Source: a virus (taxonomy: Duplodnaviria; Caudoviricetes). From it: a stretch of DNA of 61,268 nt. The stretch is taken from IMG/VR virus record IMGVR_UViG_3300024323_000002, positions 1 through 61,268 of that record; one strand, written 5' to 3'. The translations under genes were made by a program, and so were the position numbers. A model generated the notes under the pieces. It did no database searches and was not told where the DNA came from. It worked only from the letters and a program-made list of their open reading frames with translations. Of the stretch, positions 3,959 through 27,370 are shown one piece after another (position 1 is the first letter of the stretch; each line of letters opens with the position of its first letter).

Positions 3959-4547
3959 CGTCGACTCCCACCGTTGTAATCTTGTCGTCGTACCAATCAA
4001 CTAGACTTGGCAGCCGGTCATCGCGGATCACTGGCAAGTCGAGCGCGATCCACAGATTCCACAGCGCATGCGCGAGGTGATGACATGCGCTCTCGCGGTC
4101 GTTCGTCTCCCCAGCGCCATATGCCAGTAAGTGCCGCAGCGCGCTGTCGAGGTAGCTCGTGAGCGGCGCGCCTTTGCGGTAGTTCCCCCGCGCGTATTTC
4201 TTCTCGCCATACTCGTACACACGGCAGAGCTCGCGGAACGACTGCGGGAACTGAGCCAAGAGCGCGACGACGTTGCGGCTCTCAGGAACCTCGGGCTTGA
4301 ACAGCGGCGCGATGTCCTTCTCGAGCTCGAGCAGCACGGCCAGGATCGCATATTGCAGCGAGGCAGTCGGCCCGCGGTCGAGGTAGCGCGCAATCTCGGT
4401 GGCTGCGCATGTGAGCCAGTGCTGCTCGGAGACGTGCTCGTAATCGGTGCCGTCTAACTCGGCGAAGCCGTCGAGAGCGCGTGACGATGCGAAGACCTGG
4501 CTGAGACGAGGCTTGTCTTCGTTGTAGCGCAGTTGGTCTTCACTCAT
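3942..4547 (-). CDS. dATP/dGTP diphosphohydrolase domain protein (DUF5664-like)
   Basis: RYNEDKPRL; VYEYGEKKYARGNYRKG...YLDSALRHL...DRESACHHLAHALWN; DDR. Confidence 0.85.
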   Translation of the reverse strand: MSEDQLRYNEDKPRLSQVFASSRALDGFAELDGTDYEHVSEQHWLTCAATEIARYLDRGPTASLQYAILAVLLELEKDIAPLFKPEVPESRNVVALLAQFPQSFRELCRVYEYGEKKYARGNYRKGAPLTSYLDSALRHLLAYGAGETNDRESACHHLAHALWNLWIALDLPVIRDDRLPSLVDWYDDKITTVGVDDDFDY

Positions 4548-4909: not shown

Positions 4910-5242
4910 TTATGACAAACTAGTCACAAAACTAATCGCTTCTAAGGCACCGTAACAAACAGAGAAGAACGCGCCGGACCGGACTAAGGCCTCACCCCAC
5001 TCGAGCTGTTCAGGTGAAACGCGGCCACCATGGCGACGTTTCAGCTCCACGAACACAACGCGTCCCGGCAAGAGAATCAGATAGTCAGGCACACCCTTCG
5101 AGACGCCCATGGCCTTGTTCTTCGCCTTCGCGGCGTGGCTCGGCGTATACGTGCTGTTCGGAATGTGCGAGAAAGTAAGGCCTCTGGCACGCAGCCAGTT
5201 GGCGAAGATCACTGACTCGGCATACTCGCTCGCTACATCCAC
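4910..5242 (-). CDS. VRR-NUC domain nuclease (Holliday junction resolvase-like)
   Basis: HIPN, GVSKGVPD, FVELKR, GRVSPEQ. Confidence 0.9.
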   Translation of the reverse strand: MDVASEYAESVIFANWLRARGLTFSHIPNSTYTPSHAAKAKNKAMGVSKGVPDYLILLPGRVVFVELKRRHGGRVSPEQLEWGEALVRSGAFFSVCYGALEAISFVTSLS

Positions 5243-7149
5243 GGCACTAGGCGTCCATTCTCGAAGCGGGGTTCAGCCTTCTTGAACCACGCCGTCATCA
5301 GTGCTGGCTCGGCGCGCACTGGCACGTCGGGCGTGTACCGGTTGAAAGCAGTCAGCATCACATCTGTCATCGCGTAGGCCGCCTCGTGTGCGCGGCGGAT
5401 CGGCAGCTCGGCGATGACCTCGTCATGAACATATAACACAGGGTGGCAGTCGAAGAGGTCATCTCCGGGCGCGGATACATCGCAGCGCAGAGCTAAATCG
5501 AAGAGCGCCGCTTTGACTGCGTCGGTCGCGAGGCCGCTAAAGATCCCGTTCGCGACATCAGGAAAGAACGCCTGGCCGCGCACTCGGCCGCTGATGAACT
5601 GGCTGTATGTGGCTGTCTCTTCGTAGTCGCGGGCGCCATCAGGGAACATGGCTCGGATCGCGGCGAAGTAGTTCTCAGGCTCCCAGCGCTCGCGCCACGC
5701 GCGCATGATGCGAGCCGCCTCCTCGAGCGAGACTTTGGGCTCCCACTCGGCCCGCTTCTTGTTCATCTGGCGCCAGAGTCGGTCCGCCGACATGACTCCC
5801 CAGCCGCCGAAATTCACCTCTTTCGATTGCTGCCGAGCCAGCGCCCACTTGCCTTCTTTTCGTTTTGAAAAGGCCTCTTCGTAGCTGCACTTGAGCAGGA
5901 TCGAGGCGACCTCGCAGTGCACATCGCGCTTCTCGTTCAGCGCCACGGCCAGCTTTGACTTGCCAGTCAACCAGAGCTCGCACTGGCTCACCGTGTGGAG
6001 CTCGGCCATGCTGTAATCGACCGAGCAGTACCAGTAGCCGGGCCTAGGCACGAAACATTCGCGCATACGCCCCGCTCTTGGTACGTTTTGAAAGTTCGAT
6101 CCAACCAGCGGCAGCTTCGGCTCGCGTGAGCTTGTTCTACCGTTGTTGTTGATAATGACATATTCCGTCTGTAGCGGCAGCCCCGATGCACCTTCGCGCA
6201 GTTGTGTCACGCGCTCGCGCACGCTCGCAGCTGACGTGTACAGCGCATAGGCCTGCATGACCGGGTCGGCGCTGTCTCGGCACGCTTCGGCGTCGAGGCT
6301 GATGTCACCACCGTCTGTTTTCTTCGCAGAAATGCTGAGCTCCGCGCATGCCTCGACCATGCGTGCTTTAGCAGCCTTCAAGTCACGCGTACCGACCTTC
6401 GAGGCAGGCCAGATCTTGCCGTTTGCGCGGTGGGTGCCGCGGATGAGCCCGTGTTCAACACAGAGGGCTTTGGCGCGCGATATGTCGAACTCCACCTCTT
6501 CGAGGTAGGCTTCGATTGTTCGCGCGTCGGTGATCATGCCGCGTATCGACTGCCGATGCAAAGCAAGAGCCGCGCGAGCTTGAGCCGGACCATCAACGAT
6601 GAACTCGGCGAAGGCTTGCTGTAATCTGTCTACTTTGAGAGTGGCGAGAGCATCGAGCTTGGCATACTCGATTGCTGCGTCGGGCCAGTCTCGCAGATCC
6701 ACTCCGATGAGCTCGGCGTAACGAAGTCTCCAAGTGTCTTGTGACTTGTCGAGCTGTCCGCAGCCATAGCGCTCGTACAACGCAGCGAGGTTGTAAAAGT
6801 AAGGGTGAGACACCCCAGTAGAAAGCCGATAACCATTGAGGCTACCGTGAGCAAGATCAATAAGTCTTTGGTTGTGTTGGATGTCACGAATACGACCACT
6901 CGCATAGGCTTCATAGATGAGCTTTGTAAGCCGGGGGTAAGCGCGCATGAGTACGCACGCGTCGAAGGCGAAGTTGGCGCCGGTGATGTTGTTCTCTGCG
7001 AATAGCCAGGCGCAAAGCTCCTCGCCATGGCGCCCATGAACGATCTCTGGCTTCATCGAGTGGGAGCACCACGTGATGCAAGCCAGAGCCGGCGCTAAGT
7101 CGACTCCCCTGCCGATTAGCGCCGTCTCTGTGTCTACGGCTATGAGCAT
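5233..7149 (-). CDS. polA: DNA polymerase family A with 3'-5' exonuclease domain
   Basis: AVDTET (ExoI), NFAFD, YAKLD, GRTSS, NFQNVPR, DYSMAEL (motif A), RQQSKEVNFG (B), VHDEV (C). Confidence 0.95.
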   Translation of the reverse strand: MLIAVDTETALIGRGVDLAPALACITWCSHSMKPEIVHGRHGEELCAWLFAENNITGANFAFDACVLMRAYPRLTKLIYEAYASGRIRDIQHNQRLIDLAHGSLNGYRLSTGVSHPYFYNLAALYERYGCGQLDKSQDTWRLRYAELIGVDLRDWPDAAIEYAKLDALATLKVDRLQQAFAEFIVDGPAQARAALALHRQSIRGMITDARTIEAYLEEVEFDISRAKALCVEHGLIRGTHRANGKIWPASKVGTRDLKAAKARMVEACAELSISAKKTDGGDISLDAEACRDSADPVMQAYALYTSAASVRERVTQLREGASGLPLQTEYVIINNNGRTSSREPKLPLVGSNFQNVPRAGRMRECFVPRPGYWYCSVDYSMAELHTVSQCELWLTGKSKLAVALNEKRDVHCEVASILLKCSYEEAFSKRKEGKWALARQQSKEVNFGGWGVMSADRLWRQMNKKRAEWEPKVSLEEAARIMRAWRERWEPENYFAAIRAMFPDGARDYEETATYSQFISGRVRGQAFFPDVANGIFSGLATDAVKAALFDLALRCDVSAPGDDLFDCHPVLYVHDEVIAELPIRRAHEAAYAMTDVMLTAFNRYTPDVPVRAEPALMTAWFKKAEPRFENGRLVPWM

Positions 7150-10341: not shown

Positions 10342-10567
10342 CGTCGCCCTCGCCTAGCTTGATGATGTTGCGGCTGATCTCGAGGCTGATCATGTCGAGG
10401 TCCAGCGCGGCCTCACGCACGGCCGATGGCTTGGACCGGCCGTTGGTGAGCTCGCGCTGGTGCTCGAACTTGCCGTCTATCACGGCGATGCGATGGGCGC
10501 CGTAGCGGCCTGTTTTGTCTTTGGTGACGATGACGCCAACCGCGTCGGTGATGCTAGGGGTTGCCAT
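10334..10567 (-). CDS. Hypothetical protein
   Basis: ORF in operon; overlaps the recombinase 3' end. Confidence 0.55.
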   Translation of the reverse strand: MATPSITDAVGVIVTKDKTGRYGAHRIAVIDGKFEHQRELTNGRSKPSAVREAALDLDMISLEISRNIIKLGEGDDA

Positions 10568-11322
10568 ATGTATGTTCTGAAGTAGGGCCGGAGCCAGTGC
10601 CGGATCTCCTGGAAACTGTGCTTGCTGACGCGGTGAACGCGGGTCTGCTTCTCGCGCCGGTGGTAGTAAAACGTCACCGTTGTCTCGTCGATCTTGGGGA
10701 AGCCCTGTTCGGCGAGGTACTGGTAAATCTGCGGGGACGTCTGCCCATACGAGCGCAGGTACTCAACAACATAATGTAGCACCGCGGCTTGAGCTGCCTT
10801 GTGCTTTGGGGGGCGCCCCAACGTCGCGCCGTGTTTTCTCAAGACGGCGAGTGCTTGGCGGGTGCGCCAGCCGATGAGCTCGCGTTCGTATTGAGCTATA
10901 GTCTTGAGTATGTTGCGCAACAGCGACCGCTGCGGGCTGTCTGGCTCGTCGGGGTCCTCGCCACAGGAGTAGACCGCCGCCCCAGATTTGCTGATGAAAT
11001 ACTCACAAAAGCCGTCGATCTTCGTGTCGCGCGAGAAGCGATCTCGCAGAGCGATCACGACATAGTCAACGGCCCGACTGCCGACAAACTGAAGGCACTC
11101 ACGTAGGCCCGGTCTTTCGATAGGGTCAGTGTCACCGTGCACGCCTTCATCAATGAACCACTTCTTGACCTCGACTTTGTACAGCTTCGCCCACTTTTCG
11201 ATCAGGTCTCTCTGCGCTTCGATAGACAGAGCCTGTTCGCCGGTGCTGGTACGCAGATAGGCACAAGCCCACCGTGTTTTACGACCCGAGGTGTTGTCTT
11301 GGTTGCGGCCTACTCGTCCCAT
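10480..11322 (-). CDS. Serine recombinase (resolvase/invertase type)
   Basis: AYLRTST (catalytic Ser), Q, DEGVHG, RPGL, RDRFSR, AQYERELIGWRT..LGRPP. No large-integrase zinc-ribbon region. Confidence 0.9.
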   Translation of the reverse strand: MGRVGRNQDNTSGRKTRWACAYLRTSTGEQALSIEAQRDLIEKWAKLYKVEVKKWFIDEGVHGDTDPIERPGLRECLQFVGSRAVDYVVIALRDRFSRDTKIDGFCEYFISKSGAAVYSCGEDPDEPDSPQRSLLRNILKTIAQYERELIGWRTRQALAVLRKHGATLGRPPKHKAAQAAVLHYVVEYLRSYGQTSPQIYQYLAEQGFPKIDETTVTFYYHRREKQTRVHRVSKHSFQEIRHWLRPYFRTYIWQPLASPTRLASSSPKTKQAATAPIASP

Positions 11323-11359: not shown

Positions 11360-13513
11360 ATGCTCGATATTACCACGTTTCAGCAAAAGAACTACGCTCA
11401 CGGACAGAAAACCACCTTAGATTTCGCCGCTTTCTCCAGACTTTTCGCGCCGGATTCACTGACATGGCTCGAGGGCGAGCCGACGAAGGAGGCGATCGAG
11501 GAGGCAAAGGACCGCTCGCCGTTGTGGTGCCCCAGCGTCTTCGAGGGGGACAAGCGCTCAGCCAAGACCGTCGTCGGGTCGTCTGCCCTGGTGTTCGATC
11601 TCGATCGAGAGGGCGAGGCTGACGGCGTGCGGCTCGAGGGCGTGCTCGGCTGCCTCGAAGGAGTCGATTGCTGGTGCGTGCACTCGACGGCCAAGGGCGC
11701 CCTGCTCTCCCCGGGCCGGACCAAGCTACGCGTGATCCTGCCTTTGGCGCGGGCCGTCGATGCCCAGATGTACAGAAAACTGTGGCACTCGGTCAGAGAT
11801 GAGTTGGGCCTGCCGGCTGACGAGACGAAGGTTGGGCCAGAGTCGTGCTTCTTTCTGCCGAGCGTCTTTTCGGCGCATAGAGACCGGTACGTATACGTCT
11901 GCCGAGACGGCGCCCCACTAGAAGTCGGTAACGGGATAGTCTCACTCGACCTGAATGGCGCCGGGCTGGGTAGCCAGATTGAACGGCACATCGAGCGCAT
12001 CAGGACCGTACGCGTCAATAAGGCTAACGCCCTGGTGGAATCTGGAACGGGGTTGGGGGCTATCTGGGTGCGGTCGGGCCAGTCGACATTCGGCAAGGAA
12101 GACAGCTGGCTAGCGGTCGAACAGGCGCTGCGTAGCAACAAGGTTATGGTCTCGGGCGTTGACGACTGGCTTGAAGCTAGGGGCCATTTCGAACGCGGTT
12201 GGGACTACGGCGTCAAGGTACAGCAGGAGGAGAACGCTACAGTCGTAGCGAATGACAACGGTCGGGTTGCCAACACCGACCGTAACCTGATTCTGATTCT
12301 GCAGGGGCTAGACTGCATGGGTGTTGATAGGCGCAAGCAGGTCGCCGTCTACACCGCTAGGTGCCCATGGGCTATCTCGGCGAAGCCTGGTGACGAGATA
12401 CCCGAGACAGACGCTGCAGAGCTGGTCAAATGGCTGGGGTCTGAGTACCGACTAAATGTAACTGTGTCGAAAGCCGTAGACCTGATGTTCAGGATAGCTG
12501 AACAAAAGAAGGTCGACTGCCTACATGATTACATCATGCGCATGACGGGACCAACTGACCTGACGCTAGCTAGACAGCTTCTATCTACCTTGCTCATTGA
12601 GCTGATGGAAGCTGATGATACGCCGATCAACCGAGCGATTAGTCTCCGTTGGCATATAGGTCTGGTAGCTAGACAGATGAAGCCTGGTGTCAAGTTTGAC
12701 AATGCTATCGTGCTGGTCGGGAAACAAGGTGTGGGCAAAAGTAGCTATCTGCGCGAGCTGTTTCCCGAAGAACTGCAGCTTTGTTGCTTTTCCGACAGTG
12801 TCAGTGTCGATGGTCGCGATGCAGCGCTCGCCTATTCGCGCTTCGCCATAGTTGAATATGGCGAGCTAGCTCACATGACGCGTAAAGGCATCGAGGCGAT
12901 CAAGCAGGAGCTGTCTGCCAGGGAAGCGACGGTCCGGCCAGCTTACGCTAGGGTAGCTAGGACATTGCTACGAACCGCCGCGATTGCTGGTACCACGAAC
13001 GAAGGTGAGTTTCTCGTCGATGTCGAGAATCGCCGGTTCTGGCCCGTCGTCGTTGGTCGACTCGACTTGAATCGACTCCGACAGTTGAGGGGGATGATCT
13101 GGGCGGCGGGTAGGGCGCTCTTCGAGGCTGGCGAGCCGTGGTGGCTCTCTGATGAGGAGTCTGGGTGGCTGCTCGGCGCGCATGAAAACCACGAGTTCGG
13201 CGACCCATGGACAGACATGGTGGCGCGGTGGCTCTCGCTGCCTGTCTCGGCGAAGGTCTGGGGGGAGGACTCGCTCGAGGCTGGCCAAGTCGTAGACGGC
13301 AAGTGGGTGGCTGTTCGTATGGCTGATTTAGGTGTCGCGGTCGGTCTAACGGGCGCAATGTCGATGGCCGACTCGAGGCGTCTCGGGGGGGTTATGCGCA
13401 AGCTTGGGTGGGAGAAAAGTCGGGGTGCGAGGCAGGGAAACTTGGATCGCCGTACGATGGTCTGGAAGAGGCGCGACGGTGATCCAGCGCGCGACGGTGA
13501 TCCAAAACCGTGA
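11360..13513 (+). CDS. Primase-helicase: AEP-like N-terminus plus VirE/VapE-type P-loop domain
   Basis: LVFDLD, VHST, KLRVILPL; PGVKFD..VLVGKQGVGKS, RPAYAR, GTTNE, NRRFWPV. Confidence 0.9.
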   Translation: MLDITTFQQKNYAHGQKTTLDFAAFSRLFAPDSLTWLEGEPTKEAIEEAKDRSPLWCPSVFEGDKRSAKTVVGSSALVFDLDREGEADGVRLEGVLGCLEGVDCWCVHSTAKGALLSPGRTKLRVILPLARAVDAQMYRKLWHSVRDELGLPADETKVGPESCFFLPSVFSAHRDRYVYVCRDGAPLEVGNGIVSLDLNGAGLGSQIERHIERIRTVRVNKANALVESGTGLGAIWVRSGQSTFGKEDSWLAVEQALRSNKVMVSGVDDWLEARGHFERGWDYGVKVQQEENATVVANDNGRVANTDRNLILILQGLDCMGVDRRKQVAVYTARCPWAISAKPGDEIPETDAAELVKWLGSEYRLNVTVSKAVDLMFRIAEQKKVDCLHDYIMRMTGPTDLTLARQLLSTLLIELMEADDTPINRAISLRWHIGLVARQMKPGVKFDNAIVLVGKQGVGKSSYLRELFPEELQLCCFSDSVSVDGRDAALAYSRFAIVEYGELAHMTRKGIEAIKQELSAREATVRPAYARVARTLLRTAAIAGTTNEGEFLVDVENRRFWPVVVGRLDLNRLRQLRGMIWAAGRALFEAGEPWWLSDEESGWLLGAHENHEFGDPWTDMVARWLSLPVSAKVWGEDSLEAGQVVDGKWVAVRMADLGVAVGLTGAMSMADSRRLGGVMRKLGWEKSRGARQGNLDRRTMVWKRRDGDPARDGDPKP

Positions 13514-13768
13514 AAAGTGGATCACCGTGGATCACCCTAGGATCACCGTTGTCGACTCGGACGGTGATCCAACAAATTGTCAACGAAAGCAGAGGGTTAT
13601 AGTAGTGGATCACTGTGGATCACTGTATATCTATAAACATTCTAGCTATAAGCGTAATAGGGGTATATATAGCCCAATATAGCTATAGATAGCCATGCCA
13701 AGACACCATACCCACTCCCACGCGCTAAGTGGGTGATCTACGGTGATCCACGGTGATCCAGTGATCCA
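13474..13768. repeat. Putative lytic replication origin: ~12 GGTGATCCA/TGGATCAC iterons around an AT-rich core
   Basis: Copies near 13476, 13494, 13517, 13527, 13539, 13561, 13605, 13615, 13732, 13742, 13752 and 13761 in both orientations. AT-rich 13597-13692, directly downstream of the primase-helicase. Confidence 0.8.
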
Positions 13769-13769
13769 A

Positions 13770-13841
13770 CCGCCGTTCTGCTGGTTGCAGACGTCTGCCT
13801 TATATGCAGGGTTCGCTGGTTCGATCCCAGCACGGCGGACC
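13770..13841 (+). tRNA. tRNA-Ile, anticodon UAU (short D-arm)
   Basis: Acceptor CCGCCGT/ACGGCGG plus discriminator A then CC; anticodon stem TCTGC/GCAGG with loop CT-TAT-AT (TAT at 13801-13803); T arm GCTGG-TTCGATC-CCAGC. Confidence 0.75.
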
Positions 13842-20007: not shown

Positions 20008-20559
20008 TCAGACGATAAACAGGTCCTTCACCAAGAGCTCTCTGTCGAGCTCGGGTAACGGCACTTGGTCGTGTTGCCGGTACTTTGCCGCTCTGGTGTA
20101 GTGTCTTTCCTGCTTGTTGGGATGGGTGTAGACATCAAGTTTGCGCTCGGAGATGTTCAGGATCCAATAGGCCGGGACAACCCCAAACGCATAATGCGTG
20201 ACTTTCTCGTAGTCTCGTGCAAGTGATGCGCCCGCGCCCGCGATCTCAACCACGAGTATCGCCTCCGTACTGTTTGGATGCCGCTCGTAATACTGGCTGG
20301 CAGGACCGCGTATGACGGCAATGTCGGGTTCTGGCACGGTGTGGTTGCTGATGAACAGCGGTTTAGTCGTGCGCACCATCTCCTTGAGATAGAGACCTCG
20401 CAAGAGCGCTGCAATATGATCTGCAGTGCTAGCGTGCCGTGGGCTTTCCGCCCGCTTCTCTACGATGGCTCCTTTTATGAGCTCAACGCGCGAGCCCTCG
20501 GGGAGAATTTCATGCTCGACCATCTTGACGACTTGGTCGTAGGTGAATGCGTAGGTCAT
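20008..20559 (-). CDS. Uma2-family (DUF820) putative restriction endonuclease #1
   Basis: RVELIKG, SPRH, PEPDIAV, LVVEIA, D.EK..Y....V..YWILN. Confidence 0.9.
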   Translation of the reverse strand: MTYAFTYDQVVKMVEHEILPEGSRVELIKGAIVEKRAESPRHASTADHIAALLRGLYLKEMVRTTKPLFISNHTVPEPDIAVIRGPASQYYERHPNSTEAILVVEIAGAGASLARDYEKVTHYAFGVVPAYWILNISERKLDVYTHPNKQERHYTRAAKYRQHDQVPLPELDRELLVKDLFIV

Positions 20560-20798
20560 GCCTTGTTCTTCGGCTCGAGGACACTGTCCACTTCGCGCGT
20601 CAGCATCGCGGCGATGTCCCCGAGGATGTCAGCGAGGACTATGGCAATCTTCTGCGCCTCCTCCTTTGTGGCCACCGCAATCTGCTGCGAGACACCATTG
20701 CCTTTGTTGCCCTGAACCACGACCAAGAGGATAGCCTTGGCGTCGAGCTTCTCTCGCAGAATAGTCACGACTTCGTCGTACTTGCCCGGTCCGATCAT
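20556..20798 (-). CDS. Hypothetical protein
   Basis: MIGPGKYD...; coupled within the par operon. Confidence 0.65.
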   Translation of the reverse strand: MIGPGKYDEVVTILREKLDAKAILLVVVQGNKGNGVSQQIAVATKEEAQKIAIVLADILGDIAAMLTREVDSVLEPKNKA

Positions 20799-21097
20799 GG
20801 CTCTCCTTCGATGTGGCGCTCGTAGACGTCGACCATCTGCTCGAGGAGCTCGACGATGCGTATGCGCTGCTTGATCGCAAGCGTGTTGATGCGTCTCGCG
20901 GTCGAGGGCTTGACCTTGGTAGCAAAGGCGATGGTTCGCTGGCTGCGGTTCATCATGCGCATGTCGGGCAGCCCGTGCTCGTCGTCCTCACCCGCAGGTG
21001 CAACCTCGGGGGCAGACAGATTGGCGCTTGGGTTGCGGGGTGGGGCGCCGAGGGACTTGCTCTTCTTCTTCTTCACGCTGGTCATGTCCGTAGCCAT
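20795..21097 (-). CDS. Putative partition adaptor (ParG/RHH-like centromere-binding protein)
   Basis: Directly follows parA (TAATG). Disordered N-terminus plus RSQRTIAFATKV..A......ELLEQM..YE ribbon-helix-helix-like tail. Confidence 0.7.
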   Translation of the reverse strand: MATDMTSVKKKKSKSLGAPPRNPSANLSAPEVAPAGEDDEHGLPDMRMMNRSQRTIAFATKVKPSTARRINTLAIKQRIRIVELLEQMVDVYERHIEGEP

Positions 21098-21729
21098 TAT
21101 CGTTTGCCTCCAATGATGTCGACGACGTTTTGGAGCAGTCGCTCCGCTTGCTGGTTCAGTGACTCGTAAGGCGTCTCGGTGAGAGCGCGGCCCATATTCT
21201 GCGCCACGCGGTAGGCGGCTCGCTCGGGCACATAGCTCCCGAGCACGGTTATGCCAGCCTCGGTGAGGTAGTCGCGCGCCGCCTCGGCTTCATGGTCAGT
21301 CGAAATGCGGCTCAGCGCTACGACAAGCTTCTTTGCCTTGATGCCGGCCTTCTGCAGCGCGAGGAACTCACGCACGCAGGGGCGTAGGTCGTCGAGGCTC
21401 GCGCCACTTGGTTGGATGACGAGGTCTGCACTGCGCGCTATCTCGAGGGTGCCGGCAGACGTTCGTGCGGGTGCGTCAATGACCAGCAGGTCACAGCGCG
21501 CCTTCGAAAGGGCATGCTTTGCCGAGCCGAACGCCTCGACGGCTACCGTGGGCTCGAGCTCGCTCTCGAGCCTCGAGCGCGACCACTCGATTGATGTACC
21601 TTGTTGTGTGTCTAGGTCTGCTATGCGGACATCCAGCCCAGCTGCAGCTGACTCTCGAGCAAACGCCCGAGCTAGAGATGACTTACCAACGCCTCCCTTC
21701 TGAGAGACGAATGCTACGATGGTATGCAC
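21097..21729 (-). CDS. parA: ParA-family partition ATPase (type Ib)
   Basis: SQKGGVGKS deviant Walker A, DLDTQQ, VIDAP; 210 aa without N-terminal HTH. Confidence 0.95.
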   Translation of the reverse strand: MHTIVAFVSQKGGVGKSSLARAFARESAAAGLDVRIADLDTQQGTSIEWSRSRLESELEPTVAVEAFGSAKHALSKARCDLLVIDAPARTSAGTLEIARSADLVIQPSGASLDDLRPCVREFLALQKAGIKAKKLVVALSRISTDHEAEAARDYLTEAGITVLGSYVPERAAYRVAQNMGRALTETPYESLNQQAERLLQNVVDIIGGKR

Positions 21730-21738
21730 AGGTGCAAG

Positions 21739-21753
21739 CTAGATGGTATCTAG
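21739..21753. promoter_or_regulatory. Palindromic operator-like site 10 bp upstream of parA
   Basis: CTAGATGGTATCTAG. Confidence 0.7.
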
Positions 21754-21781
21754 ACGGGTGTCAACAGTGCGATTGAGCAAG

Positions 21782-21973
21782 ATGAAGACCGAGCATGCAG
21801 GTGCGAAGAACGGCGGCGGCTGGTGGGGCCATCGAGAGGAGGCCAAGGCCCTGAGCCGCTACAAGCGGCGCCTCGATGACGGCGCGGCTGTTGCTGAGCA
21901 GCTCGACGAGGTGGCCTGCGAGCCGCCGAGATGGTGGGAGCGGGAGGCACCGCCCGCGATCGCGGACAAGTAG
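21782..21973 (+). CDS. Small hypothetical protein
   Basis: MKTEHAGAKNGGGWWGHREEAK..SR..RR. Confidence 0.6.
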   Translation: MKTEHAGAKNGGGWWGHREEAKALSRYKRRLDDGAAVAEQLDEVACEPPRWWEREAPPAIADK

Positions 21974-22104
21974 CTGCTAGGTGTGAGGCGGCTTACGCGA
22001 TCGGCTGATCTCCGCAGAAAACGACCTAGCCACCGCCGATTACGCTTGTGTGCAGCGTTAGCGTGCAGGTATGGAGATCTACACCTCAAACATACCGGCT
22101 GTGC

Positions 22105-22165
22105 AAAAGAAAACCCCCTGACATTTCTGTGCAGGGGGTTGGAAAAGCAGGCCCGAAGTGTATCA
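22105..22165 (-). ncRNA. Putative counter-transcribed (antisense) RNA in the rep leader, with intrinsic terminator
   Basis: Minus-strand extended -10 TGATACACT (22165-22157). Hairpin AACCCCCTG/CAGGGGGTT (22112-22140) followed by TTTTCTTTT on the minus strand. Confidence 0.5.
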
Positions 22166-22203
22166 CCACTTCGTGCCCAAGCCCGACGTGCCGCTAGCAC
22201 ATC

Positions 22204-23109
22204 GTGCCCACGAACCAAGAACTACCTCAGCTCACAGACGAACGCAAGACTCTCGAGAGAGGTCTTGACCGTCGAGCCTGGCGGCGTAGTTGGCCGGAAC
22301 GTCCCGAGCGTCAGCTGGAGAAGGCGTATGAGTATCTGCGCTCGTTTCAGCCTACGGACGCTGGCCTGCGGAAGCTACGTAAGTTATTGGCTTATCAGGA
22401 GCCTTTGACTAAACGGCAAGAGCGTCTAGCGCGGCTGAACGCCTTTAGCGATGGCCTGATGCGCCCTTTCGAGATGTATGAGGCGGATCTCGCCCACATG
22501 CTTCGGGGTGACTATCGGCTGCTGGCGTTTTTCTATTGCACGCTAGAGATAGACCGAGAGTGGCTTGCCGCGCTGGTCGCCAAGGTCATGTACACCGAAA
22601 AGGGCTATCCGCGGGATCTCGGAGATAGACCGTTTTGGCATCGGATGCGCCTTATCGCGCTGTTATGTCTGCTGCAAAAGCAAGGGGTTGTGCGGGGCAT
22701 CCCCGCTGGGCTGCTTTGTGAGTGGCTTGGTGACTGGCACGACTTTTCACGTGGCTATGTGTACGAGCCGTTACACCGCAATACAGTTCTCGGGTATCGC
22801 CGCGAGCTCCGAGAGACGGGTTATCTGGCCTTCGTACAGTTGCCGGTCTCGCAGGTTCCGGCTTGGTGTCGAGGGCACGAGTGGACGGGGCGAGACGGTC
22901 ATACAGAGCAGTGGGCGTATAACGAGTACCGACTGCTTGGTGCTTGGCAGCGTTCACGGCCTGAGATACCCCGCGACGAGAGCGAGGCTGCCTATGTCGA
23001 ATGGGTACACGATCTCAAGCTCTGGGCATTGCTGCCCAATGAGTACACCTCACCGCTCTCAGGTGACTTTCCGATGTTCAAGTGCGGCAGGCCCCCACCT
23101 GATGACTAG
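22204..23109 (+). CDS. Putative plasmid replication initiator (wHTH-containing)
   Basis: 301 aa, GTG start; GIPAGLLCEWL...HRNTVLGYRRELRETGYL winged-helix-like segment; next to par and followed by a 450-bp structured intergenic region. Confidence 0.5.
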   Translation: MPTNQELPQLTDERKTLERGLDRRAWRRSWPERPERQLEKAYEYLRSFQPTDAGLRKLRKLLAYQEPLTKRQERLARLNAFSDGLMRPFEMYEADLAHMLRGDYRLLAFFYCTLEIDREWLAALVAKVMYTEKGYPRDLGDRPFWHRMRLIALLCLLQKQGVVRGIPAGLLCEWLGDWHDFSRGYVYEPLHRNTVLGYRRELRETGYLAFVQLPVSQVPAWCRGHEWTGRDGHTEQWAYNEYRLLGAWQRSRPEIPRDESEAAYVEWVHDLKLWALLPNEYTSPLSGDFPMFKCGRPPPDD

Positions 23110-23560
23110 GAACGCCACCTAGCGCCTCCCAGGCACCTCTAAAGGGCATCTAGCTCGATGGGGGTGCCGAGGTGCGTCCAAAACAGCCTCGAGAAGGCCT
23201 CTAGCAGCCTCCAGGTGCCCCGAGCCCGCCCTCGAGGCCCTCTGGGTGCTTGCCACCACGACTAGGCGCCCTACTCTAGTGTCGTTTATGCAGCTGATGG
23301 CGGCAGTCTCGGCCTAAAAGCTCAATATGAGTGCACATAGTTCCTGTTCTCGCCTCAGACACTAAAGTGTCTGGGTATGAAGAGGGCTAAGAGGAGGGGT
23401 TGTCTCGAGAACGAGACAGCTCTGCACTCCTCACCGCGGAGTCGTCCGGGTCGGCTGGCGCCGCAGATGCTTGCACTGGGGCTTCGCCCCAGCCCCCGAA
23501 ACCTAGAGAGCTAGTGATCATCGACACGTTGCATCTCGAGAGGAGGTGAGGCTGGTGCAA
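23110..23560. other. Hairpin-rich non-coding region, candidate plasmid oriV/sso
   Basis: Inverted repeats CAGACAC-TAAA-GTGTCTG (23356-23373), TGTCTCG-AGAA-CGAGACA (~23401-23418), GGGGCTTCGCCCC (23478-23490); near-match operator at 23139-23153. Confidence 0.45.
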
Positions 23561-23612
23561 GAGATCAATGCAAAACCCTGACGCCCGCGTCCATTTCTCG
23601 TATTATCGGCGC

Positions 23613-23864
23613 ATGTCGGAGCACGTCGACCCACCCCTGTTCGAAGAGCACGGCTCGCTGTACGAGCAGCTCTGCACCGTGACCAAGTGGCTAGCCGATC
23701 ACGGCGTGCCCGCCGAGCTGCATCTCTGGGTTGCGCCTAGCCCGAGCACGCTTGAGATCTTCACGAAGCTGTTTGTCAGTCGGCTCAAGGTGAACGAGAA
23801 GGGCACGTACTTCCGCACGCCCCATGGCCTAGTTCGCATTCGCGATAAGAAGCGCAAGAAATGA
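23613..23864 (+). CDS. Hypothetical protein
   Basis: ATG 6 nt after TATTAT (leaderless-type start). Confidence 0.6.
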   Translation: MSEHVDPPLFEEHGSLYEQLCTVTKWLADHGVPAELHLWVAPSPSTLEIFTKLFVSRLKVNEKGTYFRTPHGLVRIRDKKRKK

Positions 23865-25851: not shown

Positions 25852-26460
25852 ATGGAAACAGCCAGGGCGTTGCGGTTCACTTACGAAGAATACCAGCAAA
25901 TGTACGAGCAGGATGCGCTCGGCAACATCAAGCTCGAGTTCATCGATGGCGAGATCTACGCGATGTCTCGCGGCACGCCCACGCACGCAGAGCTGACGTT
26001 GAGTGTCGCTGCTCTGCTTCGCGACGCTTTGCGAGGAACCTGCAAGGTCTTCTCTCCTGACCTGAGCATTTACATCGCGTCGGCCAACGTAGCGACACAT
26101 CCAGACGTATCGGTCGTGTGCGGCAGGCCTGAGACAAAGCCAGGCGACCCTAAGGCGTTGATCAATCCGTCGCTGCTTGTCGAGGTCCTGAGCCCAAAGA
26201 CTGAGGCCTACGACCGTGGAGCCAAGCTCAACTATTACAAGCTGATCCCGAGCCTACGCGCTGTGCTCTTGGTCTCGCAGCATAGGCCCGAGATCATGCT
26301 GATCGAGCGTATGGCCGGTGGCCCGAGCTCGATCACAGGCACGCGCGACGGCTGGCAACCGACGCTTGCGCATGCAGGTTCCACGATCATGCTCGAGGCG
26401 CCACATGTGCAGCTGCGAGTCGACGACATCTACGCCGGCATCGAGCTCACGCCCCCATGA
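25852..26460 (+). CDS. Uma2-family putative restriction endonuclease #2
   Basis: LEFIDGEIYAMSRGTPTH, HPDVSVVCG, NPSLLVEVLSPKTEAYDRGAK..Y..IPSL. Confidence 0.92.
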   Translation: METARALRFTYEEYQQMYEQDALGNIKLEFIDGEIYAMSRGTPTHAELTLSVAALLRDALRGTCKVFSPDLSIYIASANVATHPDVSVVCGRPETKPGDPKALINPSLLVEVLSPKTEAYDRGAKLNYYKLIPSLRAVLLVSQHRPEIMLIERMAGGPSSITGTRDGWQPTLAHAGSTIMLEAPHVQLRVDDIYAGIELTPP

Positions 26461-26795
26461 ACACGTACCTCTTCATCGTGCAAGACCCCGAGCTCCAGGG
26501 CTTCTACACCGGTATCACGATCACGGCGGCCATCTCGCTCGTGTGCATGGGCTTGTTCTACGCCGAGGTGCCGTACAACCGCGCGATCAGCCTAATCGTT
26601 TGCTGCGTCGTGCCGCTCGCGTTCATCGCCGCGCATGCGTTTCTGCACATCCCGTTTGCGAAGCTGGCCTACGCTAGCCTGGCTTGGTTCTTCGCGACTC
26701 TCTGGTTCAACAAGCTCATGGTGAGGCGCCAAGACCGAGCCTTCGAGGCCAAGCGCGAGAAGTACCGCCGAGAGTTCGAGAACGAGTTTCGCTAG
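26457..26795 (+). CDS. Membrane protein (about 3 TM helices)
   Basis: Three hydrophobic stretches and a charged C-terminus. Confidence 0.7.
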   Translation: MNTYLFIVQDPELQGFYTGITITAAISLVCMGLFYAEVPYNRAISLIVCCVVPLAFIAAHAFLHIPFAKLAYASLAWFFATLWFNKLMVRRQDRAFEAKREKYRREFENEFR

Positions 26796-27370
26796 CTGAT
26801 ACCATCGAGCAGCGCGGCAAAGTCGAGGCGCTGGTTTATCGTGCGTGGCAAGCCAGCCCAGGTAGTCGGTGTGAGCTCGATGCGTTGTGTCAGCGCGTAG
26901 CGGCTGCTGAGCGGATCACGGTGGAGCTCGAGGAGTCGGCCAGGCACGTCGAGCAGCCAGTATTCGGGCACGCCGGCAGCCGCGTAGCGCGCAATCTTCT
27001 CGTGGTCGCGATTGTGGCTGGTCTGACAGACCTCGACCACGAGCACAGACTCGTCGCCACGCGGATGTCGCTCCAGATAGTTGCTGTCGGCGGCATGGAT
27101 CACCGAGACGTCAGGCTCCGGCCAGCTGTCGTCAGCGAGCACAATAGGTGCACCCACGCGCACCCAGAAGCCCCAGTTGAGGTAGGCTGTGCGCAGCTGG
27201 TCGGCGATGCGATGCGCGAGCACGAGGTGTGTAGGTCCTTCTGCGGGCATGGCAAACAGCTCCCCGTCAATGAGTTCACATCTCGCAGGTTCGGGTAGGA
27301 TGCCAGCCTCGATCATGCGCAAAACGTCGGCGCCTGTGAACTTGTATCGTGGTTCGTTGTTTAGGGACAT
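26792..27370 (-). CDS. Uma2-family putative restriction endonuclease #3
   Basis: ELIDGEL..MP.EGPTH, PEPDVSV, LVVEV, D.EK..RYAAAGVPEYWLLD. Confidence 0.92.
   Translation of the reverse strand: MSLNNEPRYKFTGADVLRMIEAGILPEPARCELIDGELFAMPAEGPTHLVLAHRIADQLRTAYLNWGFWVRVGAPIVLADDSWPEPDVSVIHAADSNYLERHPRGDESVLVVEVCQTSHNRDHEKIARYAAAGVPEYWLLDVPGRLLELHRDPLSSRYALTQRIELTPTTWAGLPRTINQRLDFAALLDGIS

What the first reader, a model, noticed from the sequence alone, without database searches (positions are those of the whole stretch)
20795..23560. Probable phage-plasmid: a Par/Rep/ori cassette in a PolA-encoding podovirus-like genome
Seen: parA plus partner, a divergent 301-aa wHTH-like gene and a hairpin-rich 450-bp gap. 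The genome also has a complete PolA/helicase/primase set with its own origin, a resolvase, no integrase and circular closure. Inference: two replicons (lytic and low-copy plasmid) in a short-tailed phage. That combination is unlike the P1, N15 and SSU5 prototypes and may involve an unclassified initiator family.
Basis: partly seen in the sequence, partly recalled or inferred. Interest (0 to 1): 0.75.

Follow-up and report, generated by a model that had tools for sequence, protein, structure and literature searches.

The report
Plasmid-type partition module in soil phage
An uncultured 61-kb soil phage with no recognisable integrase carries an ordinary plasmid-type partition operon, so it may persist as a plasmid, but the neighbouring gene and gap proposed as a second replication system show no features of one.

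Summary
The observed features are real. ParA (21097-21729, -) is about 62% identical to ParAs of proteobacterial plasmids. Its 100-aa partner is homologous to the gene that follows parA in a Bordetella plasmid and in a predicted-temperate Pseudomonas phage. The operon is tightly coupled, has a palindrome 10 nt upstream, and is kept in all four genome-length relatives examined. None of the three complete records searched has a tyrosine integrase. Each has one small serine recombinase. Two relatives carry ParE-type addiction modules nearby. A phage-plasmid lifestyle is plausible but unproven.

The "Rep/ori" half is not supported. The 301-aa gene is real, always lies divergent to parA, and evolves fast (32-41% identity against 69-89% for ParA). 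Its family has five known members. It matches no Rep family, and its only recognisable fold is a generic CRP-like winged helix (Z about 5.5). The 458-bp gap has no iterons, no AT-rich stretch and no DnaA box. It holds conserved plus-strand RNA hairpins with compensatory changes. The only classical origin lies at 13479-13768, beside the primase-helicase, and could serve both lifestyles.

PolA-encoding par phages and short-tailed phage-plasmids are already in print. Verdict: a new member of a known kind, of moderate interest.

The parts
21097..21729 (-). parA: a small (210 aa) deviant Walker A partition ATPase with no N-terminal HTH (type Ib-like).
   Evidence: The KGGVGKS motif is visible in the translation. 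Matches: Pfam CbiA 2.3e-11, PHROG 164 5.2e-32, NCBIfam ParA_partition 9.2e-25 at 87 bits, below that model's 180-bit cut-off. It is 60-62% identical to plasmid ParAs, with 1142 plasmid records matching.
20795..21097 (-). 100-aa ParA partner, the candidate centromere-binding protein. It has a Lys-rich N-terminal tail. The C-terminal part looks like a strand-helix-helix (ribbon-helix-helix) unit, judged by eye only.
   Evidence: It overlaps parA by 1 nt. tblastn places it on the ORF after parA in plasmid BPP5P1 (38%, 3.5e-14) and in phage Touem01 (45%, 1e-15). It is 61-85% identical in three relatives. No Pfam or PDB sequence match was found.
20556..20798 (-). 80-aa third gene of the operon, function unknown. 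It stands where plasmids of this type have parC, but it is not detectably ParC.
   Evidence: It overlaps both neighbours by 4 nt. It is conserved in L002, L006 and G001. No family was found, and tblastn against the BPP5P1 parC region gave E 9.5.
20008..20559 (-). Uma2/DUF820 endonuclease-like gene, the last gene of the coupled operon.
   Evidence: Pfam Uma2 at 6.9e-18. It overlaps the 80-aa gene by 4 nt. G001 has the same arrangement.
21739..21753 (.). Perfect CTAGA-N5-TCTAG palindrome 10 nt upstream of the parA start. It is a candidate operator and/or centromere site and belongs to a genome-wide set.
   Evidence: There are 14 matches at up to 1 mismatch, against 1.24 expected, and 0 of 100 shuffles reached 14. 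A perfect copy lies at the same place in L002 and L006, and a 1-mismatch copy in G001.
21743..21973 (+). Small variable ORF (76 aa from the first start) between parA and the 301-aa gene.
   Evidence: Its N-terminal part is conserved in L002. Unrelated small ORFs take its place in L006 and G001. No family was found.
22113..22139 (+). GC-rich hairpin within a 190-nt non-coding block that is conserved with L006.
   Evidence: The sequence is. Window 21954-22143 aligns to L006 at 80.5% nucleotide identity. The whole 21730-22203 stretch folds with z -4.35.
22204..23109 (+). 301-aa gene of a rare, fast-evolving family. It has a helical N-terminal half, a CRP-like winged-helix domain at about residues 140-250, and a conserved C-terminal R-x-P-P tail. 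Its function is unknown.
   Evidence: Five family members are known. The AF2 model built on a 4-sequence alignment has pLDDT 69.4 and pTM 0.69. The best structural matches are winged-helix regulators at Z 5.2-5.5. No family was found in Pfam, PHROGs or NCBIfam.
23110..23567 (+). Conserved non-coding gap holding plus-strand RNA-type hairpins. Hairpin 1 is 23122-23175 and hairpin 2 is 23186-23238, with further stems at about 23355-23500.
   Evidence: The gap is 78% identical to L006 over 23081-23498 and 81% identical to L004 over 23081-23241, while the gene body is not alignable as DNA. Fold z is -3.5 on the plus strand and -0.66 on the minus strand. Hairpin 1 has 21 pairs in 4 sequences, 4 with compensatory changes, and G-U pairs only on the plus strand. 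GC is 0.603, with no AT-rich window and no DnaA box.
13479..13768 (.). Classical origin-like region: GTGATCCA iterons in both orientations flanking the most AT-rich 60-bp windows of the genome. It starts within the last 35 bases of the primase-helicase gene.
   Evidence: 10 of the genome's 14 exact GTGATCCA copies lie here, against 1.47 expected genome-wide. The core at 13620-13700 has GC 0.35, and the lowest 60-bp GC in the genome (0.30) lies at 13570-13714.
11360..13513 (+). 717-aa primase/VapE-type helicase, the candidate initiator for the adjacent iteron origin.
   Evidence: Pfam VapE-like_dom at 9e-50. PHROG helicase and primase families reach 6.2e-67.
10480..11322 (-). 280-aa small serine recombinase. 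It is a candidate multimer resolvase, and an integrase role is not excluded.
   Evidence: Pfam Resolvase at 2.8e-25 over residues 20-166. NCBIfam hits are all far below their cut-offs. One copy is present in each of G000, G001 and G005.
5233..7149 (-). Family A DNA polymerase (PolA).
   Evidence: Pfam DNA_pol_A at 1e-18 and PHROG 17 at 4.4e-37.

Best explanation
The region is the maintenance block of a probably extrachromosomal (plasmid-state) prophage.

The partition operon. A four-gene, translationally coupled operon encodes a type Ib-like ParA ATPase, a small basic-tailed DNA-binding partner, an 80-aa protein of unknown role and a Uma2 nuclease. It is read from a promoter region that carries a CTAGA-N5-TCTAG palindrome. 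By analogy with plasmid type Ib systems, the partner would bind CTAG-containing sites, repress the operon and load ParA. ParA would then segregate low-copy circular phage genomes at cell division. These steps are inferred.

The 301-aa gene. It is a lineage-specific winged-helix DNA-binding protein. I read it as a regulator of the maintenance or early region. It is not a demonstrated replication initiator.

The gap. It encodes conserved plus-strand RNA hairpins. They could form a 3' end or processing structure of the 301-aa gene's mRNA, a leader of the next operon, or a small RNA. It is not a theta-type origin.

Plasmid-state replication. The most economical source is the only classical origin in the genome, the iterons plus AT-rich core at 13479-13768. 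It would be fired by the adjacent primase-helicase. This matches what I recall of P4 alpha and N15 RepA, where one primase-helicase replicon serves both lifestyles.

What is shown: gene identities, homologies, conservation, sequence motifs and RNA covariation. What is inferred: the plasmid state, who binds which site, and which origin is used.
For: The par module is of plasmid type.
- ParA is 60-62% identical to ParAs of Xanthomonas, Bordetella, Azotobacter and Sphingomonas plasmids.
- The partner is homologous to the gene following parA in BPP5P1. That plasmid's order is recombinase, ParA, hypothetical protein, ParC, replication protein.
- Partner and ParA also match the same gene pair in Pseudomonas phage Touem01. 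Its authors predict Touem01 to be temperate (PMC11256456, passages).

The module is conserved in the phage group.
- ParA, the partner, orf80 and the divergent 301-family gene are present in all four genome-length records examined: the window, G005 (which holds L002), the 61,910-bp contig of L006, and G001.
- Of the 21 TerL-related viral contigs, I searched 5. ParA and the family gene were found in 2 of 5. Those two are the only ones at least 90% complete. The three negatives are fragments of 38-60% completeness.

There is no recognisable integrase.
- PF00589 matched in 0 of 3 records by six-frame search, while it rang in all 14 control genomes.
- Each record has one small serine recombinase.

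Relatives carry addiction and regulator genes.
- L002 has a ParE toxin (6.1e-7) with a small upstream ORF, and a PadR regulator.
- L006 has a ParD/ParE-like pair, judged by eye only.

The operator is conserved: the palindrome lies 10 nt upstream of parA in all lineages.

The contigs of the relatives begin at different points of the same gene circle. This fits a circular or circularly permuted genome.

Evidence against a second theta origin in the block: no iterons, no AT-rich stretch or DnaA box, a strand-specific fold, and compensatory changes.

A classical origin lies at 13.5 kb.
Against: - No plasmid state has been observed. All runs that hold the sequence are soil metagenome contigs with no raw reads, so copy number, ends and host junctions cannot be read.
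- No repressor or other lysogeny regulator was recognised among the roughly 40 window proteins scanned, so temperance itself is unproven.
- Partition homologues occur in phages described as strictly virulent. This is the BigBertha caveat in PMC7969092 (passages).
- Touem01 has an integrase as well as ParA, so par genes do not exclude integration.
- The small serine recombinase could be an integrase.
- ParA scores below NCBIfam's equivalog cut-off (87 against 180 bits).
- No repeat array typical of a type Ib centromere was found. There is a single palindrome upstream, plus three CTAGC-N9-GYRCC motifs at 23119-23219. That pattern is not clearly above chance genome-wide (3 found, 0.79 expected, 3 of 100 shuffles as many).
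- The regulator reading of the 301-aa protein rests only on a generic fold at Z about 5.5 from a medium-confidence model. The five AF2 models had pLDDT 69, 64, 48, 47 and 40.
- Weak structural rows also include plasmid and phage initiators.
Confidence: 0.5

Rival explanations
1. One reading: two replicons. The 301-aa winged-helix protein founds an unclassified family of plasmid-mode replication initiators. It acts on an origin within or beside its own gene, or the par-proximal structured non-coding DNA is an RNA-primed origin of the kind shown for non-RepA mycobacteriophages. The PolA, helicase and primase set with the 13.5-kb iterons would serve lytic growth only.
For: - The gene is divergent to parA in all four genome-length relatives. 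This is the arrangement of repA in phages Miko, Rachaly and Jeeves. Their RepAs are 320-350 aa with an HTH, no iterons were found near them, and the origin was inferred to lie upstream of or inside the gene (PMC7157519, passages).
- In IncP-6 and BPP5P1-type plasmids, rep adjoins parABC.
- Fast divergence (32-41% identity against 69-89% for ParA) with an invariant HRNT...R helix would suit an incompatibility determinant.
- Both flanking non-coding blocks are conserved and strongly structured, as in the about 600-bp RNA origins upstream of parA described.
- Weak structural rows include RepA_N-type initiators: 4pql_B at Z 4.4 (rmsd 4.5, 103 aligned) and 4pt7_B at Z 4.2, and 4pta_D at Z 4.0.
- BFVD entries named replicon initiation, replisome organizer and protein O appear at E 0.08-0.2.
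Against: - No Rep family matched. Pfam found 0 families at E up to 10 for the window protein, and only HTH_Crp_2 in 1 of 5 members at 0.13.
- The initiator rows are tied with dozens of transcription regulators and lie below CRP/NtcA and Fur.
- There are no iterons, AT-rich unwinding element or DnaA boxes.
- The N-terminal half is all-helical, which does not fit a first winged-helix domain.
- A complete classical origin exists elsewhere in the genome.
- No RNA data are available.
Confidence: 0.2
2. The phage is virulent, or persists only as a transient carrier state, and has no stable plasmid prophage. The parA-partner pair would then be an acquired plasmid module. It might serve another purpose, such as positioning replicating phage DNA or interfering with resident plasmids, or it might be a passenger.
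For: - No repressor, antirepressor or other lysogeny gene was recognised.
- The genome carries a full replication set plus nucleotide-metabolism genes (a dATP/dGTP diphosphohydrolase domain and NT5C), which is typical of virulent phages.
- ParA homologues occur in 41 phage records, many of them large phages of Rhizobium, Aeromonas and Yersinia whose lifestyle I did not check.
- Pfeifer et al. doubt that SPO1-like phages with partition genes are phage-plasmids.
Against: - The whole coupled operon and its operator are conserved at 61-89% protein identity across lineages whose other genes are mosaic. This argues for selection on partition function.
- ParE-type addiction modules and PadR regulators lie beside it in relatives.
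- The nearest phage homologue is in a phage predicted to be temperate.
Confidence: 0.2
3. The phage is an integrating temperate phage. The 280-aa serine recombinase is its integrase, and the par module only stabilises a transient or alternating episomal phase.
For: - The recombinase is conserved in 3 of 3 complete records.
- It has about 115 residues of unassigned C-terminal sequence beyond the catalytic domain.
- PHROG 95 'integrase' matches at 3.4e-27.
- Touem01 carries both an integrase and ParA.
- Some elements alternate between integrated and plasmid states, as noted in PMC7969092.
Against: - At 280 aa it is far shorter than large serine integrases, and no recombinase or zinc-ribbon domain was found.
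- The best NCBIfam rows are invertase and resolvase types, all well below their cut-offs.
- No relative of ParA or of the 301-aa family was found in one genome each of 185,579 species. Those scans use a few exact peptide patterns and would miss diverged prophages.
- A plasmid with a homologous parA has a serine recombinase directly beside it. I read that one as a resolvase. The record itself says only 'recombinase family protein'.
Confidence: 0.1

Closest known systems
Plasmid par-rep clusters of the IncP-6 / Bordetella BPP5P1 type (parA, small parB, parC, then rep)
   Same: ParA is about 62% identical, and the small downstream partner is homologous (38%, 3.5e-14). A small third gene follows, and a serine recombinase is present in the element. 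IncP-6 plasmids are defined by consecutive parABC-repA genes (PMC4785139, passages).
   Different: The third gene (80 aa) is not detectably ParC. The neighbouring 301-aa gene is divergent rather than downstream, and it has no similarity to the plasmid replication protein. The host element is a 61-kb phage.
Cluster A mycobacteriophages with parABS (Miko, Rachaly and Jeeves with repA; RedRock, Alma and others with RNA-based origins)
   Same: They are phages with a DNA Pol I gene and a par cassette where an integrase would be. They have either a 320-350-aa HTH protein gene divergent to par or a structured non-coding par-proximal region, and the prophage is extrachromosomal (PMC7157519, abstract and passages).
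   Different: Those are actinobacterial siphoviruses with a larger ParB and mapped parS repeats. Their RepAs have recognisable plasmid relatives, and replication was shown experimentally. Here none of this has been tested, and the 301-aa protein has no recognisable relatives.
Type Ib partition systems such as TP228 ParF-ParG-parH (recalled from memory, not from a call)
   Same: A small ParA without an N-terminal DNA-binding domain, and a roughly 80-100-aa partner with a flexible basic tail. The partner is expected to be both centromere binder and operon repressor, with its site upstream of parA.
   Different: The ribbon-helix-helix fold of the partner was not tested here. No repeat array was found, only one palindrome plus dispersed copies across the genome.
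Pseudomonas phage Touem01 (Toucanavirus emiw)
   Same: It is the closest phage parA (58%) and partner (45%) pair. Its authors predict it to be temperate.
   Different: It is a 91.6-kb myovirus that has an integrase. There is no homologue of the 301-aa gene in the 10.6-kb stretch around its parA or anywhere in the phage collection. The rest of the genome is unrelated.
Single-replicon phage-plasmids P4 (alpha protein) and N15 (RepA) (recalled from memory, not from a call)
   Same: A primase-helicase fusion beside or around its own origin that could drive both plasmid and lytic replication. This matches the 717-aa primase/VapE protein next to the iteron origin.
   Different: Origin binding by the 717-aa protein is untested. 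This phage also has its own PolA.

Membership tests
Type Ib ParA partition system | Small (about 200 aa) ParA with a deviant Walker A (KGGxxK[ST]) and no N-terminal HTH domain | tested here: met
   The protein is 210 aa, and the KGGVGKS motif starts at residue 11. Matches: CbiA, ParA and MipZ families, PHROG 164 at 5.2e-32, and 60-62% identity to plasmid ParAs. The NCBIfam equivalog ParA_partition is matched at 9.2e-25 but at 87 bits, below its 180-bit cut-off.
Type Ib ParA partition system | Small centromere-binding partner encoded directly downstream and co-inherited with parA | tested here: met
   The two genes overlap by 1 nt. The partner is homologous to the post-parA ORF in BPP5P1 (3.5e-14) and in Touem01 (1e-15). 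It is conserved at 61-85% in three relatives.
Type Ib ParA partition system | Ribbon-helix-helix fold of the partner | not tested
Sequence searches found nothing. The strand-helix-helix pattern was read by eye only.
Type Ib ParA partition system | Centromere made of repeats close to the operon | tested here: inconclusive
   One perfect palindrome lies 10 nt upstream of parA and is conserved in relatives. No repeat array was found. Three CTAGC-N9-GYRCC motifs at 23119-23219 are weakly above chance.
Phage-plasmid (as screened by Pfeifer et al. 2021) | Phage core genes together with plasmid partition or replication genes | tested here: met
   TerL, portal, scaffold, PolA and primase are present, together with the plasmid-type parA and partner. 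The criterion is taken from passages of PMC7969092.
Phage-plasmid (as screened by Pfeifer et al. 2021) | Plasmid-type replication initiator | tested here: not met
   No Rep family matched any protein scanned in Pfam, PHROGs or NCBIfam. This feature is not obligatory in that screen, where partition genes alone suffice.
Phage-plasmid (as screened by Pfeifer et al. 2021) | Maintained extrachromosomally, not integrated | not testable with these tools
   No tyrosine integrase was found in 3 of 3 records, and no prophage copy was found in the genome collection. Only assembled contigs of soil runs were available.
Iteron-type plasmid initiators (Rep_3, RepA, pi, RepE) for the 301-aa protein | Sequence membership in a Rep family | tested here: not met
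   Pfam found 0 families at E up to 10 for the window protein, and HTH_Crp_2 in 1 of 5 members at 0.13. The PDB profile search had a best E of 0.61.
Iteron-type plasmid initiators (Rep_3, RepA, pi, RepE) for the 301-aa protein | Two tandem winged-helix domains | tested here: inconclusive
   One winged-helix domain lies at about residues 140-250. The N-terminal half is modelled as six helices without a wing. The model has only medium confidence, and the domains were not folded separately.
Iteron-type plasmid initiators (Rep_3, RepA, pi, RepE) for the 301-aa protein | Iterons, an AT-rich unwinding element and DnaA boxes next to the gene | tested here: not met
   There is no direct-repeat array in or beside the gene in the window, L006 or L004. 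The gap has GC 0.603 with a minimum 60-bp GC of 0.43, and there is no DnaA box within 1 mismatch between 21.7 and 23.6 kb.
RNA-based prophage origin (Wetzel et al. 2020) | Par-proximal non-coding region that expresses a structured RNA and replicates autonomously | not testable with these tools
   Both flanks of the 301-aa gene are conserved, non-coding and structured.

The most novel reading that the evidence does not exclude
The 301-aa winged-helix protein, with its conserved C-terminal R-x-P-P tail, founds a new family of plasmid-mode replication initiators confined to a soil phage lineage. It would work together with the conserved, structured RNA elements that flank its gene. The phage would then run two mechanistically different replicons: an iteron and primase-helicase origin for lytic growth, and a protein-plus-RNA origin for low-copy plasmid maintenance. 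The rapidly diverging initiator would set incompatibility groups.
Probability: 0.2. Interest if true: 0.7.

Novelty: new member of a known kind. Interest (0 to 1): 0.45.

Why it matters
Phage-plasmids are increasingly seen as major vehicles of gene flow. Almost all well-studied groups come from cultured enterobacteria, vibrios, firmicutes and mycobacteria. This lineage includes 21 related viral contigs and at least four genome-length records, and the runs that hold the window sequence are soil metagenomes. It has no cultured relative: its TerL has a single match in the phage collection, at 26% identity. It would extend the phage-plasmid lifestyle to a deeply divergent PolA-encoding soil phage whose partition genes were clearly borrowed from proteobacterial plasmids.

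The lineage also offers a compact, testable case for one question: does a phage that already has a complete replicon need a second one for the plasmid state? The fast-evolving winged-helix gene and its conserved RNA hairpins are a well-defined unknown beside a well-understood module.

Tried and rejected
Homology searches for the 301-aa protein
- The word-indexed search of 5.8 billion proteins found only the query itself (1 of 3987 candidates).
- The profile of five members found only itself and P0003 (2 of 8000 scored).
- The full HMMER scan of 1.84 billion representatives gave 4 hits. I dropped one, P0004. It is a 901-aa repeat protein matched only at query residues 232-282, in seven stretches, at E 4.7e-4, and it looks like a tape-measure protein.
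- Also negative: tblastn against the phage and plasmid collections, the PDB profile search, Pfam, PHROGs and NCBIfam, and the Atlas, where all scores were under 0.9 and so are leads only.

Structure of the 301-aa protein
- The single-sequence AF2 model was useless (pLDDT 36).
- The alignment-based model gave no Foldseek hit at E <= 0.001 in the PDB or BFVD.
- VIA-align gave no Z >= 8.
- RepE-, pi- and RepA-type dual winged-helix initiators were not among the rows shown. This does not exclude them.

Motifs
- TCTAGC is not enriched (36 found, 31 expected). This idea came from earlier notes on plasmid centromeres.
- CTAGC-N9-GYRCC is only marginally enriched.
- CTAG overall is under-represented (152 found, 222 expected), with only modest local clusters.
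- The sigma-70 and terminator scans of 19.8-24.2 kb gave nothing useful.
- Rfam found only the tRNA.

Context of relatives
- The genome-collection scans with the family profile and with ParA found no relatives.
- TerL has no match in the plasmid collection.
- An exact-pattern scan for the conserved gap element found only the two contigs already known.
- The context of P0003 could not be obtained.

Sequencing runs
- No RNA holder was listed.
- The four runs I laid are assembled contigs. No host junction, molecule end or copy number can be read from them, and parts without cover mean nothing.

Other points
- The cumulative GC skew peaks at about 22-28 kb. I draw nothing from this, because the skew does not track either the gene strand or the iteron origin.
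- I did not send a complex-prediction job, because no claim here rests on a specific protein-protein contact.
- Supplementary tables of PMC7969092 (the list of phage-plasmid groups) and of PMC7157519 were not seen. They could list a closer precedent.

Full report
WHAT THE WINDOW IS

The window is a complete IMG/VR virus record of 61,268 bp. It ends in a 127-bp direct terminal repeat. GC content is 59%.

Family searches identify the following genes:
- a PD-(D/E)XK exonuclease (2373-3656, -)
- PolA (5233-7149, -)
- an SF2 helicase (8372-10078, -)
- a 280-aa serine recombinase (10480-11322, -)
- a 717-aa primase/VapE helicase (11360-13513, +)
- the large terminase subunit (40161-41693, +)
- a portal protein (41686-43917, +)
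- a scaffold protein (43948-45081, +)
- an amidase (60002-60607, +)

Most other proteins match nothing.

The tail type cannot be told. The P22 and SU10 portal matches fall below Pfam's cut-offs. None of the ten structural-region proteins scanned hit a tail family.

The phage is remote from anything cultured. PolA is at most 26% identical to any record in the phage collection. TerL has a single match there, at 26%.

CHECKING THE OBSERVATION

All the listed features are present.

The operon on the minus strand runs in this order:
- parA, 21097-21729
- a 100-aa gene, 20795-21097
- an 80-aa gene, 20556-20798
- a Uma2 nuclease gene, 20008-20559

The junctions overlap by 1, 4 and 4 nt, so this is one translationally coupled operon.

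ParA has the deviant Walker A motif near its N-terminus and no extra N-terminal domain. It matches CbiA, ParA and MipZ in Pfam, and PHROG 164 at 5.2e-32.

The 301-aa ORF (22204-23109, +) is divergent to parA. Its codon-position GC pattern matches that of neighbouring genes.

The 458-bp gap that follows it is more structured than chance, but only on the plus strand. The fold z-score is -3.5 on the plus strand and -0.66 on the minus strand.

THE PARTITION MODULE IS OF PLASMID TYPE AND IS CONSERVED

ParA is 60-62% identical to ParA proteins of Xanthomonas, Bordetella, Azotobacter, Sphingomonas and other proteobacterial plasmids. In all, 1142 plasmid records match, and 33 of them lie in the 60-80% identity band.

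Its best phage match is Pseudomonas phage Touem01, at 58%.

The 100-aa partner finds the ORF directly after parA in two places:
- Bordetella plasmid BPP5P1: 38% over 108 residues, E 3.5e-14
- Touem01: 45% over 89 residues, E 1e-15

The two genes therefore travel together as a module.

BPP5P1 reads recombinase, ParA, hypothetical protein, ParC, replication protein. IncP-6 plasmids are defined by a consecutive parABC-repA cluster (PMC4785139, passages). The 80-aa third gene stands where parC would be, but it is not detectably ParC.

Touem01's authors predict it to be temperate. They note that it has both an integrase and the ParA-like gene, and they say experimental proof is lacking (PMC11256456, passages).

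Within the phage's own lineage, TerL finds 21 related viral contigs at 89% identity or more. I searched five of them for ParA and for the 301-aa family. Two were positive. These are the only two that are at least 90% complete (G001 at 100%, G005 at 98%). The three negatives are fragments of 38-60% completeness.

Adding the window and a 61,910-bp metagenome contig (L006), all four genome-length records carry the same block in the same order. The block is orf80, the partner and parA, read divergently from the 301-family gene.

| Protein | Identity to the window in relatives |
|---|---|
| ParA | 89% (L002), 69% (G001) |
| Partner | 83%, 85%, 61% |
| 301-aa family | 38%, 41%, 32%, 34% |

LIFESTYLE CLUES

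A six-frame search for the tyrosine-recombinase family found nothing in G000, G001 or G005. The same search rang in all 14 control genomes.

Each of the three genomes has one small serine recombinase.

Relatives carry further maintenance-type genes in the same neighbourhood:
- L002 has a ParE-family toxin with a small upstream ORF, and a PadR regulator.
- L006 has a ParD/ParE-like pair, which I judged by eye only.

At the corresponding place the window has a second Uma2 gene.

The relatives' contigs start at different points of the same gene circle. The genome is therefore circular or circularly permuted, and the 127-bp repeat is best read as assembly closure.

None of this shows a plasmid state. 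Runs holding the sequence are soil metagenomes kept only as assembled contigs, and no RNA run was listed.

No repressor was recognised among the proteins scanned.

THE 301-AA PROTEIN

It is a real gene of a very small family. The full scan of 1.84 billion representatives gave three true members (the query itself, P0002 and P0003) and one spurious repeat protein, which I dropped. Two more members came from relatives' DNA.

It matched nothing in the following:
- Pfam, PHROGs and NCBIfam
- PDB sequences
- the plasmid and phage collections

When all five members were scanned at E up to 10, the only Pfam row was HTH_Crp_2, in one member, at 0.13.

An AF2 model built on four sequences reached pLDDT 69.4 and pTM 0.69. 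The other four models scored lower.

Foldseek found nothing at E <= 0.001 in the PDB or BFVD.

VIA-align's best rows are as follows:
- Fur: Z 5.5, rmsd 3.1, 93 aligned
- NtcA: Z 5.5, rmsd 2.3, 77 aligned
- other CRP/FNR, PerR, TFE, ORC and MarR winged helices

All of these cover about residues 114-250. Staphylococcal RepA_N-type initiators appear at Z 4.0-4.4, tied with many regulators.

The five-member alignment shows an invariant H-R-N-T...R...G helix, an E-x-W-A-x-N block and a C-terminal R-x-P-P tail.

My conclusion is that this is a winged-helix DNA-binding protein of unknown role. 'wHTH-like' is fair. 'Rep' is not shown.

MOSAIC PATTERN AROUND THE GENE

DNA alignment with L006 and L004 gives the following:
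- The par operon is conserved at 80-85%.
- A 190-nt block upstream of the gene (21954-22143) is conserved at 80%.
- The first 48 nt of the gene are conserved.
- The stretch from the last 29 nt of the gene through the gap is conserved (23081-23498 at 78% with L006, 23081-23241 at 81% with L004).
- The gene body itself does not align as DNA.

In one further soil run, contigs carry a nearly identical allele of the 301-aa gene, with 0-2 differences over 22216-23122. A contig over the partner gene in the same run differs at 24 of about 205 positions. The two parts therefore seem to assort independently.

THE GAP IS NOT ORIGIN-LIKE

Repeat searches found no iteron arrays in or beside the gene in any of three genomes.

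The gap has 60.3% GC, which is above the genome mean. Its lowest 60-bp window has 43% GC. No DnaA box within one mismatch lies between 21.7 and 23.6 kb.

What the gap does contain is conserved hairpins. For hairpin 1 (23122-23175), an alignment of four lineages gives these counts over 21 pairs:
- 4 pairs have compensatory double changes.
- 5 pairs have compatible single changes.
- 4 cells do not form a standard pair.

Several G-U pairs exist only on the plus strand. Hairpin 2 (23186-23238) and downstream stems show the same behaviour in three sequences. This points to RNA structure on the strand of the 301-aa gene. With three or four sequences the covariation evidence is suggestive and no stronger.

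By contrast, 10 of the genome's 14 exact GTGATCCA copies lie between 13479 and 13768, in both orientations. Only 1.47 copies are expected genome-wide. They flank the most AT-rich 60-bp windows of the genome, where GC is 0.30-0.35. The cluster starts within the last 35 bases of the primase-helicase gene. This is the one classical origin in the genome.

THE PALINDROME

CTAGA-N5-TCTAG occurs 14 times at up to one mismatch, 6 of them perfect. The expectation is 1.24, and 0 of 100 shuffles reached 14.

One perfect copy lies 10 nt upstream of the parA start. It sits at the same place in L002 and L006, and G001 has a one-mismatch copy there.

One-mismatch copies lie at 23139 and 23190, inside the conserved gap element.

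The other copies sit at gene junctions across the genome. The site therefore belongs to a wider regulon or to a set of dispersed partner-binding sites. I cannot say which protein binds it.

MOST LIKELY MECHANISM

I favour the following, at about 0.5 confidence:
- The region is the maintenance block of an extrachromosomal prophage.
- It consists of a borrowed type Ib-like partition operon under palindrome control, beside a lineage-specific winged-helix regulator with RNA-structured flanks.
- The 13.5-kb iteron origin and its primase-helicase supply replication in both states.

The single-replicon idea rests on my recollection of P4 alpha and N15 RepA, not on a call.

The rivals are:
- a virulent phage in which the par genes serve another purpose (0.2)
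- an integrating phage that uses the serine recombinase (0.1)

COMPARISON WITH WHAT IS KNOWN

The idea is not new in kind.
- About 20% of cluster A mycobacteriophages replace the integration cassette with parABS. The genome maps in that paper also label a DNA Pol I gene. A few carry a 320-350-aa HTH RepA gene divergent to par. The rest use a par-proximal region of about 600 bp that expresses a non-coding RNA. Both types were shown to replicate autonomously (PMC7157519, abstract and passages).
- Pfeifer et al. screened phages with plasmid replication and partition profiles. They list a podovirus-predicted F116 community and crAssphage. They warn that partition genes in SPO1-like phages may not mean a plasmid state (PMC7969092, passages).
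- CrAssphage has been argued to be a phage-plasmid (PMC10983915, preprint, passages).

I saw no supplements.

What is new here is the lineage, which comes from soil and has no cultured relatives, and the unexplained gene-plus-RNA unit beside par.

VERDICT

This is a new member of a known kind, and I score its interest at 0.45.

Noticed in passing
13479-13768: A dense cluster of GTGATCCA iterons (10 of the genome's 14 copies) lies in both orientations around the most AT-rich core of the genome. It starts within the last 35 bases of the primase-helicase gene and ends just before the tRNA. It looks like a textbook origin.
   Followed up: partly
240, 12570, 13631, 14529, 16230, 21739, 23139, 23190, 25353, 27867, 30157, 32667, 32678, 35409: A genome-wide CTAGA-N5-TCTAG palindrome, often extended to GCTAGA...TCTAGC, lies mostly at gene junctions. 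There are 14 copies against 1.24 expected. It is also present in relatives G001 and G005. The protein that binds it is unknown.
   Followed up: partly
3942-4547 (-) and 1369-2010 (-): A protein with the N-terminal domain of dATP/dGTP diphosphohydrolases (5.4e-23) and a deoxynucleotide 5'-nucleotidase (NT5C, 5.4e-16) lie in the replication module. They hint at manipulation of the dNTP pool and perhaps at a modified base in the phage DNA.
   Followed up: no
20008-20559, 25852-26460, 26792-27370: Three diverged Uma2/DUF820 nuclease-like genes lie within 7.4 kb. One is the last gene of the par operon. Relatives have ParE-type toxin-antitoxin pairs where the second Uma2 gene sits in the window.
   Followed up: partly
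L002:2757-3250, L002:3513-3866, L006:5016-5572: Relatives carry a ParE-family toxin with a small upstream ORF and a PadR-family regulator between the 301-family gene and the conserved downstream genes. The window lacks them.
   Followed up: partly
22204-23109, last 10 residues: All five family members end in a conserved R-x-P-P tail that follows a poorly conserved, low-confidence linker. It may be a short docking motif for a partner protein.
   Followed up: no
20819-21023 versus 22216-23122 in run X4: One independent soil run holds a near-identical allele of the 301-aa gene but a partner-gene segment that differs by about 12%. This suggests recombination between the two halves of the block.
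   Followed up: no
13770-13841: A tRNA-Ile with anticodon TAT lies directly after the iteron cluster. It was found by both ARAGORN and Rfam.
   Followed up: no
40161-41693: The only record in the phage collection with a similar large terminase (26% identity) is a 43-kb element deposited under a bacterial genome-project accession, with Silvanigrella aquatica given as host.
   Followed up: no
23568-23864; L002:3882-4184; L006:2963-3340; L036:7125-7361: The first gene after the gap differs in sequence between lineages but always ends in a Lys/Arg-rich tail (KKRKK-like).
   Followed up: no
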